Positions 2,562-64,000 of a stretch of 64,000 nt of DNA are shown piece by piece. The notes under the pieces were generated by a model that was given only the letters and a program-made list of their open reading frames with translations, ran no database searches and was not told the origin of the DNA. The stretch's first letter is position 1. The number at the start of each line of letters is the position of its first letter. Made by a program: the position numbers and the translations under genes. Source of the stretch: Escherichia coli (lineage in GTDB: Bacteria; Pseudomonadota; Gammaproteobacteria; Enterobacterales; Enterobacteriaceae); the NCBI RefSeq assembly GCF_024223415.1, contig NZ_CP100500.1; one strand, given 5' to 3'.

Positions 2562-5500
2562 TACCGATATGCTCCACTTAACCGACCACCATCACGGGCC
2601 TGCTGTTGCATAAAGTCCGCTGCCGCTTTTTTCCCAAGGTCATAAACCACCTTCAGGGCAGCCGGACCTATCTGCCCGTTCGTGCCATCGTTATTGATCT
2701 CGATGTTGTACTGCGGGGCAAACATCGCCATACCTGAACCACCAATATCCGCCACAACCCCCAGCTTACCGTCAGCACCACGACGCAGTGGCAGAATGGC
2801 TTCAGGTCCAGCTTCCCCCATCACACCCGCGCCTTTTGCAAAAGCAAAAAACGTCGGACGGTTAACCACCGTGCCACTGTAACGACTCAAATCAGCAGAC
2901 TGATAAATCCCCCCATTGGCATTCAGGGAAAGGCTGCTGAGATCAAATCCCAGTACACTGCCAATCCCTTTTATCGATTTCATCATGGTTGCCTGCGCCA
3001 GGATTTTCGCCATATCTGACAGCACCGAAGAGGTGAAGGATTTGAAGTTGAGTTTGCCGGTAGTGACAAAAGTTGCCAGGCCATTTCCCATGTTGCTGAA
3101 GGCTGATGAGAACACCTGTTCTGCTGTTCCTGCCGTATTGTCTGCATCCACGGTAAAATCCTGAAATGCACGCAGGACTCCGTTTTTCCAGTTACCCTGC
3201 ACAACTTCAAGCTGTTGCCAGTAACGGCGATTCTCATTCAGTTGTCGGTTCAGGCTCTCCGTCAGCGCCTGCTCGGCCTTTCTGTAGTCATCCGTGTTAT
3301 ATGTCCCTTTCTGCTCACTATCCCGCCTCAACTGCTCCAGCTGTTGCTGGTATTTCTGGCGAAGACTCAGTTGTACCTGATATCGCTGCCGCTGCTGATC
3401 ACCCATACCCACCGTGGCGATATCCAGGTCATGTTGCTGACGCTGAGCGCGCTCTTCTTCAGCCAGTTGACTGGTCAGCTGAATTGTTTTTTTCTTCAGA
3501 TCGTTGAGTGCCGTTTGTTTCTGAAGCTCCTGCTGTTTTACATCCAGCAGCGTCAGTGCCTGAATCAGTTCATCTTTACGGGCCAGCACACTCTTTTCAT
3601 CTGCCGTCAGTTTTTTCCCGTCCAGGTCGCTGATGCGCTGCTGCAGAGCCAGAAGCTGTTTATGCGCTTCTGTCATCCTGTCAGTGGCAATGCCTGCTGA
3701 CTGTCTGGCAGCAGCAATCTGCCCTTCCACCTGTGCCTGTTGCTGGCTGTACTGCAGCAATAACCGGGTGGCCTCATCATTACGGGTTTCGCGTGTTTTT
3801 TTCTTACCGGATGCCAGGGCTTTCTCGTAACGTTCATTTTCACGTTGTATCGCCGCATCCCTGACAGCCTGATCGGCGTACTGCATGGCATTAATACGCG
3901 CAATTTCACGCTGATGTCGTGCTGCTTCCGTTTCATTCATCCGGTTCAGTGCAGCATTTTCAGCATTACGGCGTTTCTGTTGCTCCTGATAATTCCGCTC
4001 TGCCTGCTCTTTTGCATCCTGCAAATCCTTCTGGCGTTTTTTCTCCTGAAGCTCGTTAAGACGCTGCTGATCGTATTCAACCTGAGAAGATGATGCCGTC
4101 CAGGGGAGTCTTTTCGCCCGCGATACTTTCTCCTGCAAAGTGGCAATCTGCGCATCCAGCGAATCTTCACGACCAATATTCATGGCCGCATCCCAGAACT
4201 GCTTCCACCAGTCAGACAAGGTTTGCAGCGTACTACCCAGCGCATTGAGGTTATTATCAATATCCGCAGTACGCCGACCGGTTTCCTCTGCCAGTGCAGA
4301 CATGGCTATCCGTGCCGCATCACTGGAGCGCCCCTGCTCTCCAAGGACGCGTATCTGCTCAAGCTGAGTGGCAGTAAGAAAATGCAGCTCATTGTCCAGA
4401 GCCTTCGCGGCATTTACAGGATCATCCTTCAGCCGCTTAAACTGATTTATGGTATCGCTGATCGACTGGCCAACCGATCGCTCCATCTGTGCGGCAGCTC
4501 TCGCCACCATACCGATATCGTTTCCACGAAATGCACCACTCCCCACCACCTGAGCCAGCGCACCGGCTGCAGCATGTTGCGTGATACCATTCCCGGAAAT
4601 AGCACGACTGAGCGTCCACAGCTGCCCGGCAGTGACTCCGGCATAATGCCCCGTCAGCGACAGCTGGCGGTTAAATTCTTCCCCCTCCTTCTGACCGTCA
4701 TACCAGGCTTTACCCAGACCATAGACGGCCGCGGTAATACCGCCAATAACCCCGCCCAGCATCATGCCTTTCGGTGACATCAGTGTGTCTATCCATCCGG
4801 CACGGTTAGCCAGCGTTATCCCGGATCCCCTCAGCGCCCCTAAATTGCCGCGGGCCAGTTCACCTATCAGAACGCCTATCTCCTGGCGGGCCGCTGCACT
4901 TTTCAGACCCAGCGAATGCGTGGCTTTTCCTGCCCGCTCCATTTTGCGGATATACACTTCTGCAGCACTGCTTACCCCCAGCTGGGCAGCCCTGGCACGA
5001 AGCAACTCAGAAGAAGAAAGATTCTGGCGGGTTGCCTGCTCTTTAAGCTGACGGATAAACGCCACTTTCTGTCGGGTAGCCTCTGCCTCAGCCTGCGTAA
5101 GAACACGGGTTTTCGCCGTAACCTCAGAAATCAGCGCCAGATAATCCTGCTGACCAATCCCGCCACTGTTTCTGGCCTGTCGGATCTGCTGCTGAATACG
5201 CTGTAACTCCTGCAACCCCGCACTGGCCTGTTTCACACTGTCAATCTGACGATAAAACGCGGCAGCCGCTTTATCCTGAGCCTCCGCCAGAGCCATGGCC
5301 TGCGCCTGTTCCTCGCGCATTTTCTGGCTCAGCGCCTCCATGCGCTGGCGGGTTTTCTCCACCTCGCGGGCCATGCGTTCATGAGCCTGTGCGTTCTTCT
5401 CCACCGTCTGCGCATGGACGGATGCGGCTGTTGCAGCCGAAGAAGCCGCCTGCGTTGTCTGCCGGGCGGCCTGAGTCTGACGCTCCATAAAACGCTGCAT

Positions 5501-54230: not shown

Positions 54231-54644
54231 GGAGTCATAAATGGGATATATCTATAACTTATTTTCAATAAGGTATTGATTTAATTAAACAACTTACACT
54301 ACAAAAAGTGCCAAAAATCGCAAATTAACTACACCATTAACTACACCGTTCGGCGCACTGTATGAAACAACGTGGAACAAATAGGCACAAGAAATATAAA
54401 GGCGGGTAATTTTAAGGGGGCGTTGCTGTCGATACGGGGATCCACATATCGAGATTGATACCTGGCTTTTTTTCCGGTTAACCTTTAATCAGGCTGGTGG
54501 GCTTTACCTGTTCTGTAGGAGTGGTCATTATGACCATTCAGCCAATGACCTTAATCAGAATTTTTCGCTAAAAAATGACGTTGGCCACGTCATCCGGAAA
54601 GCACAAAATCACGTCGATTTTTAATGGATGGTTAAACCGTCTTT

Positions 54645-54950
54645 TTGTCACGGTGTGTCACTGGTTGTCACGCTCTGTCACGATGTCCGGCCTCCTCACA
54701 TTGAGGATTGTGGAAGAATCAATGGGTTAGTCTTACTACCCAAACTACGGGTAGTTTCCGTAGTTTCATGGTCGAGTTGCAGATCTGCAACTCCCCCATC
54801 AACCACAGGCGAATTTCCGCCTTCGGTCATTCCTTAATCATCTGCGTAATCATAATGATTATTCAGCCACCTCAATTTTGAGGTTTGCTTTAAGTTCAGC
54901 GAGTTACCGCGCCGACTTCCTCAAATTGAGGTTTCCGAAAATATCAGTGG
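54645..54950. repeat. Repeat-dense non-coding region (phased TGTCAC repeats, CCTCA-N-TGAGG palindromes, 20-bp perfect palindrome)
   Basis: TGTCAC x4 at exactly 10-bp spacing (54645-54680); palindromes CCTCACATTGAGG (54693), CCTCAATTTTGAGG (54870), CCTCAAATTGAGG (54919); GAGTTGCAGATCTGCAACTC (54774-54793). Confidence 0.6.
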
Positions 54951-55087
54951 GTTAGCGATTAAGCTGACCATTAATTAAACTGCGAAAATTTCGTAGTTTG
55001 TGACTGTCTTTCAGGCAGCTTGTTATCAGTCCTCAGATGTGAGGGATGTAGCCAGCGCAATTTTGCGTTATCGGGAATATCAGCAAG

Positions 55088-55369
55088 TTACCGCCGTAAC
55101 CGTTCCGGCTTCTTCCACTGATAAGTGTTTTTCGCGCTCTCCTGATACATCGCCACGCGTCGACGGTATGCCAGCAACTCTAGTACTCTGATTCGTATGT
55201 CGCGCATATCCACGCCGTTAAGCTCAATACCATCACGGCGCATTACATCAGCAACAACACGCACGTAATTTTCGGCGATCACGCTGTCCGGCTGCGTGGC
55301 CTGTTCGTCATGCTGCTGGCTGATTCCGGTAACGCGGCGGATTAATCCCAGTAGTTCGGCTTCTGTCAT
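55088..55369 (-). CDS. Hypothetical protein
   Basis: 93 aa ORF at the end of the element's minus-strand gene series. Confidence 0.35.
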   Translation of the reverse strand: MTEAELLGLIRRVTGISQQHDEQATQPDSVIAENYVRVVADVMRRDGIELNGVDMRDIRIRVLELLAYRRRVAMYQESAKNTYQWKKPERLRR

Positions 55370-55661
55370 TGTGCCCCCATCGCTCTGATAGTCTGGTGTC
55401 GTCGGGTCCTTCTGGAATTATGGCCCGTTACGGGGCGTCGACCTCGCGGTTTTTCGCTATTTATGAGCTTTTTTAGAGGGAGGTTGTTGTTTAATTGTTT
55501 GTCATATCCATTTGATAACTAAGTAAAAATAAAGAGCAATACAACAACCTGATAGTGTTTTTTTGATGCTAAAAATAAAAAAATACTAATTGAATCAAAT
55601 AGTTTTAAAAAAATACGTGGTTGTTGTATTGCGTATTTGATGGCGTAACAGAAAGTGATTT

Positions 55662-56102
55662 TTAACTTTGCTGTTCTGTAACGACTGATTGTTCCATGCT
55701 GGCACGGCGAACGCTTACGGCATGACGCCACCCAGCCAGAAAGCCAGCCATTTTATTTCGTGCCTTGCTCACATCTTCCGGTGAATAGCCGTAAATATGC
55801 AAACCTTCATCAAATCGCTGTTCTGTTTCTTCACTGAAATACTCGTCGCGCTCTGACGCAATCAACCTGGCAACCATAATCTTTTCCAGTGCGCTGGTTT
55901 CTCCGTGGTACTCAATAGCATCAAGATGGCTTTTACCCATGCACCAGAATAATGTGTGTCCGATGTGATAACCGCCGGACTTTCCGCGATCCGCATCAAG
56001 ATATGGCATGCCCTGTTTGGTCCATGCGCGAATAGTGGTTCTGTTGACCTTGAAATGTTCTGCTATTTCCTGCTGACTCACAAAACAAGCTTTATCAATC
56101 AT
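55662..56102 (-). CDS. Nu1-like HTH protein (terminase small subunit-like / packaging specificity candidate)
   Basis: 146 aa; N-terminal SQQEIAEHFKVNRTTIRAWTKQGMPY...GGYHIGH resembles lambda Nu1 N-terminal DNA-binding domain. Confidence 0.45.
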   Translation of the reverse strand: MIDKACFVSQQEIAEHFKVNRTTIRAWTKQGMPYLDADRGKSGGYHIGHTLFWCMGKSHLDAIEYHGETSALEKIMVARLIASERDEYFSEETEQRFDEGLHIYGYSPEDVSKARNKMAGFLAGWRHAVSVRRASMEQSVVTEQQS

Positions 56103-56235
56103 AATGTTACCTTAATCATGCGATTAAATGTTAATCAAGTGGTGGTGGTGTCACCTTCACGGAAAAACGTCATAAATAGCGAAAACGCGCGAGGTCGACG
56201 CCCCGTAACGGGTCCACATGCCGGAAAGGACCCGC

Positions 56236-56264: not shown

Positions 56265-56678
56265 TCAGATGGTTTTCAGTATGCGATCGATGTCGCCGTC
56301 ATCGCCCTGGTTTGTGCCATCGTATGCCATGCCAGCTGATACGGCTTTCGGGCTGTGCATGTCCATAAAGTTTTCAAAGGCTGAAGTAAGCTCTGGTGCA
56401 ACCTTCGGGCGTTCCTGCTCTATGGTCATGCTAAGGATGCTTTTAGCCGTACCAACATCGATACAAGGCACGTTAGCCATTGCACGTAACAGCGGCTGGT
56501 AGTCGTCAGATTCATGAAGCGCCATAATCGCATCAGCGCGCGGCTTGTCCTGTTCTTCCAGTTTGTTGAGTCGGTGTATGGCCTCGTAGGTTGATAAACC
56601 TCTGTCAGCCATTGCCCGCGCTTCGGCTTTAAATTTACTCGCCAGCGGTAGCTTCATGATACTTTCATTCGTTGCCAT
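56265..56678 (-). CDS. Hypothetical head-module protein
   Basis: 137 aa acidic protein directly downstream of the gpD-like gene. Confidence 0.35.
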   Translation of the reverse strand: MATNESIMKLPLASKFKAEARAMADRGLSTYEAIHRLNKLEEQDKPRADAIMALHESDDYQPLLRAMANVPCIDVGTAKSILSMTIEQERPKVAPELTSAFENFMDMHSPKAVSAGMAYDGTNQGDDGDIDRILKTI

Positions 56679-63663: not shown

Positions 63664-64000
63664 GCCCGTTATCCGGCAATTGTGGCGCTTCGCCACACGG
63701 TTGATATAATCCCACTGCTCATATTCATTTTTTGCGCAGTAGGTTAATTGTTCAGAAAGGCGGCTCCTTATCGGGGCCGCTTTTTTTATGTCTGAAAAAC
63801 CGCGATTTTGTTGTTTTTCAGTTTCACAAGGCCGAACGAAGCCCCGCCCCTGTTCGGGCGTATATCCAGTCTTCATGGTTAAATCTCTGTATTAGTGGAT
63901 GGGTGGCGGCTGTGTGCCGCCAGTCTTTTTAGTGAACTGCCTCGCAGCTTTCCTTCCATGCCAGAACTTCGGATAAAGACCAGCCAACGGAACGACCGCC

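What the first reader, a model, noticed from the sequence alone, without database searches (positions are those of the whole stretch)
55470..55640. AT-rich control region with long-range inverted repeats upstream of ORF 55088-55369
GGTTGTTGTTTAATTG (about 55481), CAATACAACAACC (about 55546) and GGTTGTTGTATTG (about 55621) form direct and inverted copies of one 13-nt motif separated by A/T tracts. This suggests an operator set or a bent-DNA packaging/recombination site between the Nu1-like gene and the terminal ORF.
Basis: seen in the sequence. Interest (0 to 1): 0.3.

Follow-up and report, generated by a model that had tools for sequence, protein, structure and literature searches.

The report
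Phage-type packaging site (cosB) in a satellite island
The three repeats are the small-terminase binding sites (R3, R2, R1) of a complete, phage N15/Monarch-type cos packaging signal. It is the second, inverted cos site of an E. coli phage-satellite island of the EcCICFT073 family, so it is a known kind of element whose specificity had not been worked out.

Summary
GGTTGTTGT occurs three times in the 64-kb window, all within 146 bp (55482 +, 55541 -, 55619 +), in 25% GC DNA.

It is not primarily a gene-control region. It is the cosB part of a complete lambda-like cos site: cosQ ~55400-55414, cohesive end 55433-55444, R3 55480-55495, IHF-like core 55505-55517, R2 55537-55550, R1 55617-55631. 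R3 matches phage N15 bp 48-63 at 16 of 16 bases, which includes the experimentally defined R3. The +,-,+ layout is that of the "Monarch" group of N15-specificity prophages.

About 55 phage or prophage contigs carry the same cosB, followed by a TerS gene with an N15-type HTH. In the island, homology to phages stops just after R1.

The "Nu1-like" gene is Rpp (RppC, PDB 6HLK, E 1.7e-32). The island belongs to the EcCICFT073 PICI family, known to carry two cos sites. The window's inverted second copy (56203, directly upstream of rpp) is cos1; the finding lies in cos2.

The papers found call the cos2 cosB unidentifiable. Here it is a phage-derived module: N15/Monarch-type in this island, PhiR12-type in EcCICFT073.

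Function as an Rpp-independent packaging start for N15/Monarch-specific helpers is inferred, not shown.

The parts
55400..55414 (+). cosQ of cos2. It reads CGTCGGGTCCTTCTG, the same variant as EcCICFT073 cos2.
   Evidence: It aligns with lambda cosQ CGGGTCCTTTCCGG. It matches the EcCICFT073 cos2 sequence TCGTCGGGTC..TTCTGGAATTATGGCCCGTTACGGGG in Fig S1A of PMC6739421.
55433..55444 (+). cosN of cos2. The 12-nt cohesive-end sequence is GGGCGTCGACCT; lambda has GGGCGGCGACCT. This position is bp 1 for the numbering used here.
   Evidence: Alignment with the lambda and PhiR5_1 cos sites.
55445..55479 (+). The cosN-to-R3 interval (CGCGGTTTTTCGCTATTTATGAG...), corresponding to the lambda segment that holds I2.
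   Evidence: 77% of columns for bp 1-47 are invariant across 47 distinct cos sites. It aligns with lambda.
55480..55495 (+). R3, sequence GAGGTTGTTGTTTAAT, at bp 48-63 from the nick.
   Evidence: It matches phage N15 bp 48-63 at 16 of 16 positions. R3 of N15 was defined by linker scanning at bp 48-59/60 (PMC4669245; PMC9026076).
55505..55517 (-). IHF-like core (TATCAAATGGATA, one mismatch to WATCAANNNNTTR) at the I1 position between R3 and R2.
   Evidence: The TTGATAA core is invariant in all 47 distinct homologous cos sites.
55537..55550 (-). R2, which reads AGGTTGTTGTATTG on the - strand, at bp 105-118.
   Evidence: 86% of its columns are invariant across 47 distinct cos sites, although R2 was not part of the search pattern.
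55593..55605 (+). A second IHF-like core (AATCAAATAGTTT, one mismatch) between R2 and R1.
   Evidence: The pattern ATCA.A...TTTT is conserved in the alignment.
55617..55631 (+). R1, sequence GTGGTTGTTGTATTG, at bp 185-199. Homology to phage cos sites ends just after it.
   Evidence: In phages the RBS and ATG of the TerS gene follow R1; in the island the 3' flank of rpp follows it.
55662..56102 (-). rpp, the 'redirecting phage packaging' gene (146 aa). It converges on cos2.
   Evidence: It matches PDB 6HLK/6HN7 RppC at E 1.7e-32. Its N-terminus is identical to RppA over the first 35 residues printed in Fig S1 of PMC6739421.
56139..56156 (-). cosB of cos1. This is the proposed R3-PICI, bp 48-65, sequence AGGTGACACCACCACCAC.
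   Evidence: The sequence is. It matches the EcCICFT073 cos1 sequence. The position was proposed by Murialdo and Feiss.
56192..56203 (-). cosN of cos1, GGGCGTCGACCT on the - strand. The rpp ATG lies at bp 102 from this nick.
   Evidence: The figure legend in PMC9026076 gives the rpp start at bp 102.
56221..56234 (-). cosQ of cos1, CGGGTCCTTTCCGG on the - strand.
   Evidence: (inverted repeat I1).
55088..55369 (-). The terminal 93-aa ORF of unknown function (phrog_1561). Its start codon lies about 30 nt from cosQ of cos2. It is probably read through from rpp.
   Evidence: No terminator was found between rpp and this ORF.

Best explanation
The AT-rich region is the cosB subsite of 'cos2', the second of two lambda-like cos packaging sites in an EcCICFT073-family (Rpp-type) phage-inducible chromosomal island.

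Shown here: cos2 is a complete phage-derived module made of cosQ, cosN, the I2 interval, R3, an IHF-like I1 core, R2 and R1. The three GGTTGTTGT repeats sit in +,-,+ orientation at bp 48-63, 105-118 and 185-199 from the nick. R3 is identical to the experimentally defined R3 of phage N15. The tripartite layout is that of 'Monarch'-group lambdoid prophages, which encode a TerS with the N15-type HTH.

Inferred mechanism, by analogy with lambda: a helper phage TerS of N15/Monarch specificity binds the R sites. IHF bends the A/T-rich spacer so that R3 and R2 are brought together. TerS then positions the helper's large terminase subunit (TerL) to nick cosN at 55433-55444. Packaging runs rightwards through the island concatemer until the next cos2.

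This would give the island a route into capsids that does not depend on Rpp. The other route uses the inverted cos1 (nick at 56203, just upstream of rpp), which the Rpp-TerS heterocomplex recognises.
For: - Each arm of the 64-nt inverted repeat aligns with lambda cosQ-cosN-I2. Similarity to lambda stops where lambda's cosB begins.
- Window 55480-55495 matches N15 bp 48-63 at 16 of 16 positions. R3 of N15 was mapped to bp 48-59/60 by linker scanning, and Monarch-group prophages have N15-like R sequences in a three-R plus IHF cosB.
- An IMG/VR pattern scan that specified only cosN and R3 returned about 74 cos sites with further copies at about -110 and +176/188. About 55 of them are followed by a Nu1 homologue starting near bp 230-241, on contigs up to 50 kb.
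- The TerS of those phages has the N15 gp1 N-terminus and HTH...LLNKSDMASS(I/L)GISVQAFDKWGV....
- Across 47 distinct sites, 86% of R2 columns and 67% of R1 columns are invariant, against 35% in the R2-R1 spacer. The TTGATAA core at the I1 position is invariant. Island-to-phage homology ends right after R1.
- The neighbouring gene is Rpp. The right-hand cos equals the published EcCICFT073 cos1 and the left-hand one shares the cos2-specific cosQ variant.
- In EcCICFT073 both cos sites were shown to work: the double deletion abolishes transfer and cloned cos2 mobilises a plasmid.
- Rpp loci that are 88-100% identical carry either this cosB or a PhiR12-type cosB. The latter is about 97-100% identical to phage PhiR12_1 from the nick to the last R site.
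- Islands with a different cosN carry that cosN in both cos sites and still keep the GGTTGTTGT R sites.
- Monarch-type cosB plus terS prophages occur in 256 of 5426 complete E. coli genomes. Strain 300709 holds both such a prophage and this island's cos2 region.
Against: - No binding or packaging experiment exists for this cosB in an island.
- In EcCICFT073, cos2 is dispensable. Its deletion slightly or significantly raises transfer by phi80 and lambda, and RppA did not increase transfer of a cos2 plasmid as it did for cos1. Those tests used non-cognate helpers only.
- The cosB is not followed by a terS gene here, unlike in phages.
- The IHF sites are only one-mismatch consensus matches in AT-rich DNA.
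- R3 conservation in the IMG/VR set is partly by construction, because the search pattern required GGTTGTTGT at that position.
- Co-residence with a cognate prophage was seen in single cases only and was not tested statistically.
Confidence: 0.8

Rival explanations
1. The region is a decaying relic. A fragment of a lambdoid phage cos was captured by recombination, stays in the island by hitch-hiking, and has no present function.
For: In EcCICFT073, cos2 is not required for transfer by lambda or phi80, and its deletion raises transfer. The module is truncated exactly at the end of cosB and lacks terS.
Against: R2, R1 and the IHF-like core stay invariant while the spacers diverge. The complete module is kept in every Rpp island in which both cos sites were located, including islands with a different cosN in both cos sites. 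At least two phage specificities are found at the same position, each intact from cosQ to the last R site. This pattern is not what decay predicts.
Confidence: 0.1
2. The region is a decoy or interference site. It attracts unmodified helper terminase, either to divert it from phage DNA or to cut island concatemers, and does not yield productive island particles.
For: Deleting cos2 raises lambda-mediated transfer of EcCICFT073. This fits cos2 competing with or damaging cos1-initiated packaging. The two cos sites face each other only 770 bp apart.
Against: A complete cosQ is retained, and cosQ is needed only for termination of packaging. A pure decoy would not need it. Cloned cos2 does mobilise a plasmid.
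Confidence: 0.07
3. The region is an operator and promoter set, bound by an island-encoded HTH protein, that controls the 93-aa ORF.
For: The region lies upstream of ORF 55088-55369 on the - strand, is AT-rich, and contains inverted repeats.
Against: No promoter-like hexamer pair was found in 55470-55660 on either strand. A full cosQ-cosN unit lies between the repeats and the ORF. The same repeats occur in phages upstream of terS in the opposite orientation, with no such ORF. The sequence equals a mapped TerS site of N15.
Confidence: 0.03

Closest known systems
cosB of 'Monarch'-group lambdoid prophages (N15 packaging specificity, tripartite cosB; Feiss et al. 2015, PMC4669245)
   Same: It has the same R sequence (GGTTGTTGT core) and the same R3 position (bp 48-63). 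It has the same three-R layout in +,-,+ orientation with an IHF-like core between R3 and R2. It is homologous along its whole length to phage cos sites that precede a TerS with the N15-type HTH.
   Different: It sits in an 11-kb satellite island, not a phage. No terS gene follows R1; the 3' end of a convergent rpp gene does. The spacer sequences form an island-specific lineage (class A). I did not have the Monarch sequence itself, so the identification rests on the paper's description and on N15.
cos2 of EcCICFT073 (Fillol-Salom et al. 2018 and 2019; PMC6092414, PMC6739421)
   Same: It has the same position and orientation: downstream of rpp, inverted relative to cos1, and directly before the homologue of the 93-aa ORF. 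It has the same unusual cosQ variant. The island organisation is the same: capsid, decoration protein, 137-aa protein, cos1, rpp, cos2.
   Different: The cosB is unrelated. EcCICFT073 cos2 has ATGTCCGG-type repeats, nearly identical to phage PhiR12_1. This island has GGTTGTTGT-type repeats. The papers describe the island cosB sequences as completely divergent from phage cosB and do not assign cos2 to any phage specificity.
Phage lambda cosB (R3-I1-R2-R1)
   Same: The architecture, the R3 distance from the nick (lambda bp 49-64) and the R3-R2 spacing of about 57-59 bp are the same. The R orientation is +,-,+, and cosQ, cosN and I2 are near-identical.
   Different: The R sequence is different (lambda CGTTTCC). 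R1 lies about 35 bp further from the nick. According to PMC4669245, lambda and 21 terminases do not package N15-specific DNA.
Phage N15 cosB (single R3)
   Same: R3 matches at 16 of 16 positions at the same location.
   Different: N15 has only R3, plus a remote rR2 inside gene 1, and no IHF site. The window has the full tripartite form. The N15 cohesive end also differs (GGGCGGCGTCCG).

Membership tests
lambda-like tripartite cosB | It lies immediately downstream of a cosN cohesive-end sequence, with R3 about 48-65 bp from the nick. | tested here: met
   cosN is at 55433-55444 and R3 at 55480-55495, which is bp 48-63.
lambda-like tripartite cosB | It has three copies of one R sequence, with R2 inverted relative to R3 and R1. 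| tested here: met
   The copies are at 55482 (+), 55541 (-) and 55619 (+). The lambda R sequences show the same +,-,+ pattern.
lambda-like tripartite cosB | It has an IHF site (I1) between R3 and R2. | tested here: inconclusive
   There is a one-mismatch consensus match at 55505-55517 (-). Its TTGATAA core is invariant in 47 homologous sites. No binding data exist, and the AT-rich background yields such matches easily.
lambda-like tripartite cosB | It is followed by the cognate small-terminase gene. | tested here: not met
   In the window the convergent rpp 3' end follows R1. The feature is met in about 55 homologous phage loci, where the Nu1 homologue starts at bp 230-241.
lambda-like tripartite cosB | TerS binds the R sites and this drives packaging initiation. 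| not testable with these tools
   This needs footprinting or EMSA and transduction assays.
N15/Monarch packaging specificity | The R sequence matches the mapped R3 of N15. | tested here: met
   It matches N15 bp 48-63 at 16 of 16 positions. The mapping is reported in PMC4669245.
N15/Monarch packaging specificity | The cognate TerS has the N15-type recognition helix. | tested here: met
   This holds for the phages that carry the homologous cosB. Such a TerS is not encoded next to the window's copy; it must come from a helper.
EcCICFT073-family Rpp PICI, cos2 | There is an rpp gene with cos1 directly upstream, the start codon about bp 102 from the nick. | tested here: met
   The RppC match has E 1.7e-32. 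With the nick at 56203 and the ATG at 56102, the start is at bp 102.
EcCICFT073-family Rpp PICI, cos2 | There is a second cosQ-cosN unit, inverted, downstream of rpp. | tested here: met
   The arms of the inverted repeat are 55410-55473 and 56163-56226. The same layout was found in all 19 cos2-bearing island loci examined and in most Rpp loci.
EcCICFT073-family Rpp PICI, cos2 | The cos2 cosB sequence is the same as in EcCICFT073. | tested here: not met
   EcCICFT073 has ATGTCCGG repeats and the window has GGTTGTTGT repeats. The window is therefore a variant of cos2, not the same allele.
EcCICFT073-family Rpp PICI, cos2 | The island has an integrase, an AlpA-like regulator and a pri-rep module. 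| tested here: inconclusive
   These are annotated in the near-identical island of strain AR_0085: an integrase, a small HTH regulator and a RepA-family helicase. The integrase end lies beyond window position 64000, and I did not test the regulator for AlpA identity.

The most novel reading that the evidence does not exclude
Rpp-type satellite islands may keep two convergent cos sites with a division of labour. cos1 is island-specific and read by the Rpp-TerS heterocomplex. cos2 is an exchangeable, complete copy of a real phage cos, whose cosB is swapped by recombination among phage packaging specificities (N15/Monarch here, PhiR12-type in EcCICFT073). The island could then be packaged by unmodified terminase of a matching helper as well. 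This would widen helper range and yield two genome permutations packaged in opposite directions. It would also explain the published observation that cos2 is functional, dispensable and slightly inhibitory with non-cognate helpers.
Probability: 0.5. Interest if true: 0.5.

Novelty: new member of a known kind. Interest (0 to 1): 0.35.

Why it matters
Two cos sites were reported in EcCICFT073 in 2018. The role of cos2 was left open, and its cosB was described as unlike any phage cosB.

Recognising cos2 as an intact phage cos of a defined specificity, different in different islands, yields a testable prediction. These pathogenicity-island satellites should be mobilised without Rpp by helpers of the matching specificity. 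About 5% of complete E. coli genomes carry an N15/Monarch-type cosB and terS.

This bears on which prophages can spread these islands. It also bears on the Murialdo-Feiss model of island packaging, which considers only the cos next to rpp.

For the scan itself, the result is mostly a clean explanation of an odd-looking repeat cluster.

Tried and rejected
- **blastn of the cosB alone against phage genomes.** Only chance-level hits were returned. The region is short, AT-rich and low-complexity filtered. The pattern scan and the whole-cos query found the relatives instead.
- **13-mer search with 2 mismatches.** It was not enriched and missed the first copy. The 9-mer core was the informative unit.
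- **Exact IHF consensus.** There was no hit inside the region. Only one-mismatch matches exist.
- **Promoter and terminator scan.** Nothing was found in the repeat region. The only terminator-like hit is the cosN palindrome itself.
- **Pfam on the 'Nu1-like' protein.** This gave only sub-threshold HTH and Phage_Nu1 hits. The PDB sequence search resolved it as Rpp.
- **Query L036:3050-3930.** The coordinates were mis-set, taking mostly DNA upstream of cos, so the result was not used.
- **Replication origin or iteron reading.** Considered and rejected. The repeats are in a +,-,+ arrangement tied to cosN, and the same module in phages sits upstream of terS.
- **Co-occurrence of cos2 type with resident prophage TerS type.** This could not be tested properly because result lists are capped. 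There are only anecdotal co-residences: strain 300709 and IMG genome 2585427729 (L028 and L037).

Full report
**1. The observation**

The three motif copies are present: GGTTGTTGTTTAATTG at 55482-55497 (+), CAATACAACAACC at 55537-55549, and GGTTGTTGTATTG at 55619-55631 (+). The repeat finder reports a 26-nt, 81% inverted repeat (55536-55561 / 55607-55632) and a perfect 10-nt inverted repeat (55481-55490 / 55541-55550).

The 9-nt core GGTTGTTGT occurs exactly three times in the 64-kb window, all inside 146 bp. Shuffles give 0.65 per window. The stretch 55470-55640 is 25% GC against 50% for the window. The only inaccuracy is a shift of about 9 nt for the middle copy.

**2. What surrounds it**

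Aligned with lambda and with phage PhiR5_1, each arm is a cosQ-cosN-I2 unit: CGGGTCCTT(T)C.GG ... GTTACG|GGGCGTCGACCTCGCG.TTTTCGCTATTTATGA. Similarity stops where lambda's cosB starts.

Two lambda-like cos sites therefore face each other. The left one has its nick at 55433, on the + strand, and is followed by the finding's region. The right one has its nick at 56203, on the - strand, and is followed after 101 bp by the start codon of the 146-aa 'Nu1-like' gene.

That protein is Rpp, the 'redirecting phage packaging' protein. It matches RppC (PDB 6HLK/6HN7) at E 1.7e-32. Pfam gave only sub-threshold HTH and Phage_Nu1 hits.

The window is E. coli. The element is an island of about 11 kb inserted after allC. 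Near-identical copies are annotated in strain AR_0085 (between allC and allE) and strain Ch1 (in tqsA). They carry an integrase, a RepA-family helicase, SSB, PerC, major capsid, decoration protein, a 137-aa protein, rpp and a terminal 93-aa ORF.

**3. What is already known**

EcCICFT073-family PICIs are known to carry two cos sites.

- cos1 is required for lambda- and phi80-mediated transfer. Its cosB is recognised by the Rpp-TerS heterocomplex.
- Deleting cos2 slightly or significantly raises transfer.
- Deleting both abolishes transfer, and each cloned site mobilises a plasmid.
- Both papers state that the phage cosB could not be identified in the island and that the island cosB sequences are 'completely divergent'.

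Supplementary Fig S1A prints both sequences. The window's right-hand cos equals cos1 (...TGACGTTTTTCCGTGAAGGTGACACCACCACCACTTGATTAA...ATG of rpp). The left-hand one carries the cos2-specific cosQ variant (TCGTCGGGTCC.TTCTGGAATTATGGCCCGTTACGGGG).

Murialdo and Feiss (2022) model island packaging using only the cos next to rpp, with the rpp start at bp 102 as here. They never mention cos2 or Monarch. Only the two Penades papers in the searchable library mention cos2 of EcCICFT073. EcCICFT073 also encodes the capsid and decoration homologues (c1499, c1500), so those genes are not new either.

**4. Identity of the repeats**

A weak phage hit extended into the first repeat (H16). It is a Ravinvirus (N15-like) phage whose cos reads ...ATGAGGTTGTTGTTTAATCA..., followed by the terS start. 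N15 itself has GAGGTTGTTGTTTAAT at bp 48-63, which matches window 55480-55495 at all 16 positions.

Feiss et al. (2015) mapped the critical TerS site R3 of N15 to bp 48-59/60. [quoted passage not shown] N15-specific DNA is not packaged by lambda or 21 terminase.

I scanned IMG/VR with a pattern that fixed only part of cosN and the first repeat (CGACCTCGCG N28-50 GGTTGTTGT). It returned 79 loci. About 74 are cos sites with further copies at about -110 and +176/187/188, none of which the pattern required.

- About 55 are followed by a Nu1 homologue (about 36% identical to lambda Nu1) starting at bp 230-241, on contigs of up to 50 kb. These are phages or prophages.
- Their TerS N-terminus (MAFLLNKSDMASSIGISVQAFDKWGVPPVERRGREV) is nearly that of N15 gp1 (MAVLLNKSDMASSLGISVQAFDKWGVQPVEKRGREV). 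I take them to be the Monarch group, from the paper's description and not from the Monarch sequence itself.
- The other 18 are islands with a convergent rpp or rpp remnant and an inverted cos1 535-770 bp away.

In an alignment of 47 distinct sites, the island cos2 is homologous to the phage cos from cosQ to R1. Homology to phages ends just after R1. Phages continue with the RBS and ATG of terS, whereas islands continue with the 3' flank of rpp.

| Segment | Invariant columns |
|---|---|
| R2 | 86% |
| R1 | 67% |
| R3 (partly fixed by the search pattern) | 81% |
| R3-R2 spacer (includes an invariant TTGATAA) | 61% |
| R2-R1 spacer | 35% |

One-mismatch IHF consensus matches lie at 55505-55517 (-), which is the I1 position, and at 55593-55605 (+). 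There is no exact match. The repeats are thus R3 (bp 48-63, +), R2 (bp 105-118, -) and R1 (bp 185-199, +). This is the same orientation pattern and R3-R2 spacing as lambda, whose R sequences are listed.

**5. cos2 is an exchangeable phage module**

- The cosB printed for EcCICFT073 cos2 (ATGTCCGG / CCGGACAT repeats) is that of Escherichia phage PhiR12_1.
- An EcCICFT073-type island (L102) is about 97-100% identical to PhiR12_1 from the nick to about bp 147, the last R copy. It is unrelated after that.
- A scan with the Rpp protein found 26 loci. Rpp proteins 88-100% identical sit next to either the N15/Monarch-type or the PhiR12-type cos2, always inverted about 640-770 bp from cos1.
- Three islands (L090, L091, L099) have a quite different cosN in both cos1 and cos2. 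They still keep the GGTTGTTGT R3/R2/R1 and the TTGATAA core.
- Some islands carry the phage 'class B' spacer sequences inside island flanks (L002, L020), and L026 is a hybrid. This points to recombination with phages.

These patterns argue for maintained function and against a decaying relic.

**6. How it most likely works**

Shown: the identity, anatomy and conservation of the site, and its homology to phage cosB.

Inferred from lambda and N15 biology: TerS of an N15/Monarch-specific helper binds R3, R2 and R1. IHF bends the A/T-rich spacer. TerL is positioned at cosN (55433-55444). Packaging then proceeds rightwards, antisense through rpp and through the inverted cos1, around the concatemer to the next cosQ-cosN of cos2.

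cos1-initiated packaging (Rpp-TerS) runs the other way. The island would thus have an Rpp-dependent and an Rpp-independent route.

Potential cognate helpers are not rare. The Monarch-type cosB plus terS is in 256 of 5426 complete E. coli genomes, and the island-type cos2 at 99% identity or more is in 31. Strain 300709 has both, and IMG genome 2585427729 yielded both an island (L028) and a class C phage contig (L037). I could not test the association statistically.

**7. Against the control-region reading**

No promoter-like or terminator-like site lies in 55470-55660. The intergenic segment between the 93-aa ORF and rpp is filled from end to end by the cos module. The ORF is most simply read through from rpp. 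A transcriptional role on top of the packaging role is not excluded.

**8. Verdict**

The element is a member of known kinds: a lambda-like cosB of N15/Monarch specificity, and cos2 of Rpp islands. The added value is the assignment of cos2 to defined phage specificities and the evidence that it is a swappable module. I did not find this in the literature available here. Interest is moderate to low (0.35).

Noticed in passing
window 55433-55444 and 56192-56203: Both cos sites of the island carry the same cohesive-end variant, GGGCGTCGACCT (T at position 6; lambda has G). The variant also occurs in the related islands L001, L002 and L023, and in two Monarch-type phage contigs (L050, L051). The two inverted copies seem to evolve in concert, or to track the same helper TerL.
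   Followed up: partly
L090, L091, L099 (IMG/VR Rpp loci), about 2380-2450 and about 3150-3250: These islands have a quite different cosN region in both cos1 and cos2 (…CACCGGGGGTAGCCATACGCGCAAAAACGCGCT…). They keep the Rpp-type cosB at cos1 and the GGTTGTTGT R3/R2/R1 at cos2. They presumably match a helper with another cohesive end.
   Followed up: partly
window 54640-55090: The island's left end, between the attachment junction and the 93-aa ORF, is a dense repeat field. It has four GTCAC at a 10-bp period (54645-54681). It has a unit of about 44 nt with a CCTCA-N4-TGAGG palindrome and ATCAGTGGGTTAG at 54687 and 54912, with further palindromes near 54870 and 55030. It has TTCCGTAGTTT copies at 54756 and 54989. 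The function is unknown; it could hold recombination-directionality, integrase arm-type or regulator sites.
   Followed up: no
window 56265-56678 (-): RefSeq annotates the 137-aa protein as a 'phage head-tail connector protein'. It belongs to phrog_1999 (unknown function) and has a weak match (E 5e-8) to the C-terminal end of head maturation protease profiles (phrog_53, positions 495-568 of 583). That is the region lambda C shares with the Nu3 scaffold, so it may be a scaffold-like protein and not a connector.
   Followed up: no
window 56139-56156 (-): The proposed Rpp site of cos1 (AGGTGACACCACCACCAC) has a triplet-periodic complement (GTGGTGGTGGTGT). This resembles the GGTTGTTGTTT core of the N15/Monarch R sites, but in the opposite orientation relative to cosN. 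It may be coincidence.
   Followed up: no
window 54249 onwards; L001 and L002: Nearly the same island sits at two chromosomal sites in different strains: after allC (window, AR_0085) and inside tqsA (strains Ch1 and SW4848). The match in the tqsA copies starts at window position 54249, which places the island's left boundary there. The integrase end lies beyond window position 64000.
   Followed up: partly
L087 (Escherichia phage PhiR12_1, PV340549) 432-580: This phage's cosB has three ATGTCCGG-type repeats and is nearly identical to the published EcCICFT073 cos2 cosB. Its TerS C-terminal half is nearly identical to that of the Monarch-type phages, while the N-terminal DNA-binding domain differs. 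This is an example of TerS domain mosaicism matching cosB type.
   Followed up: partly
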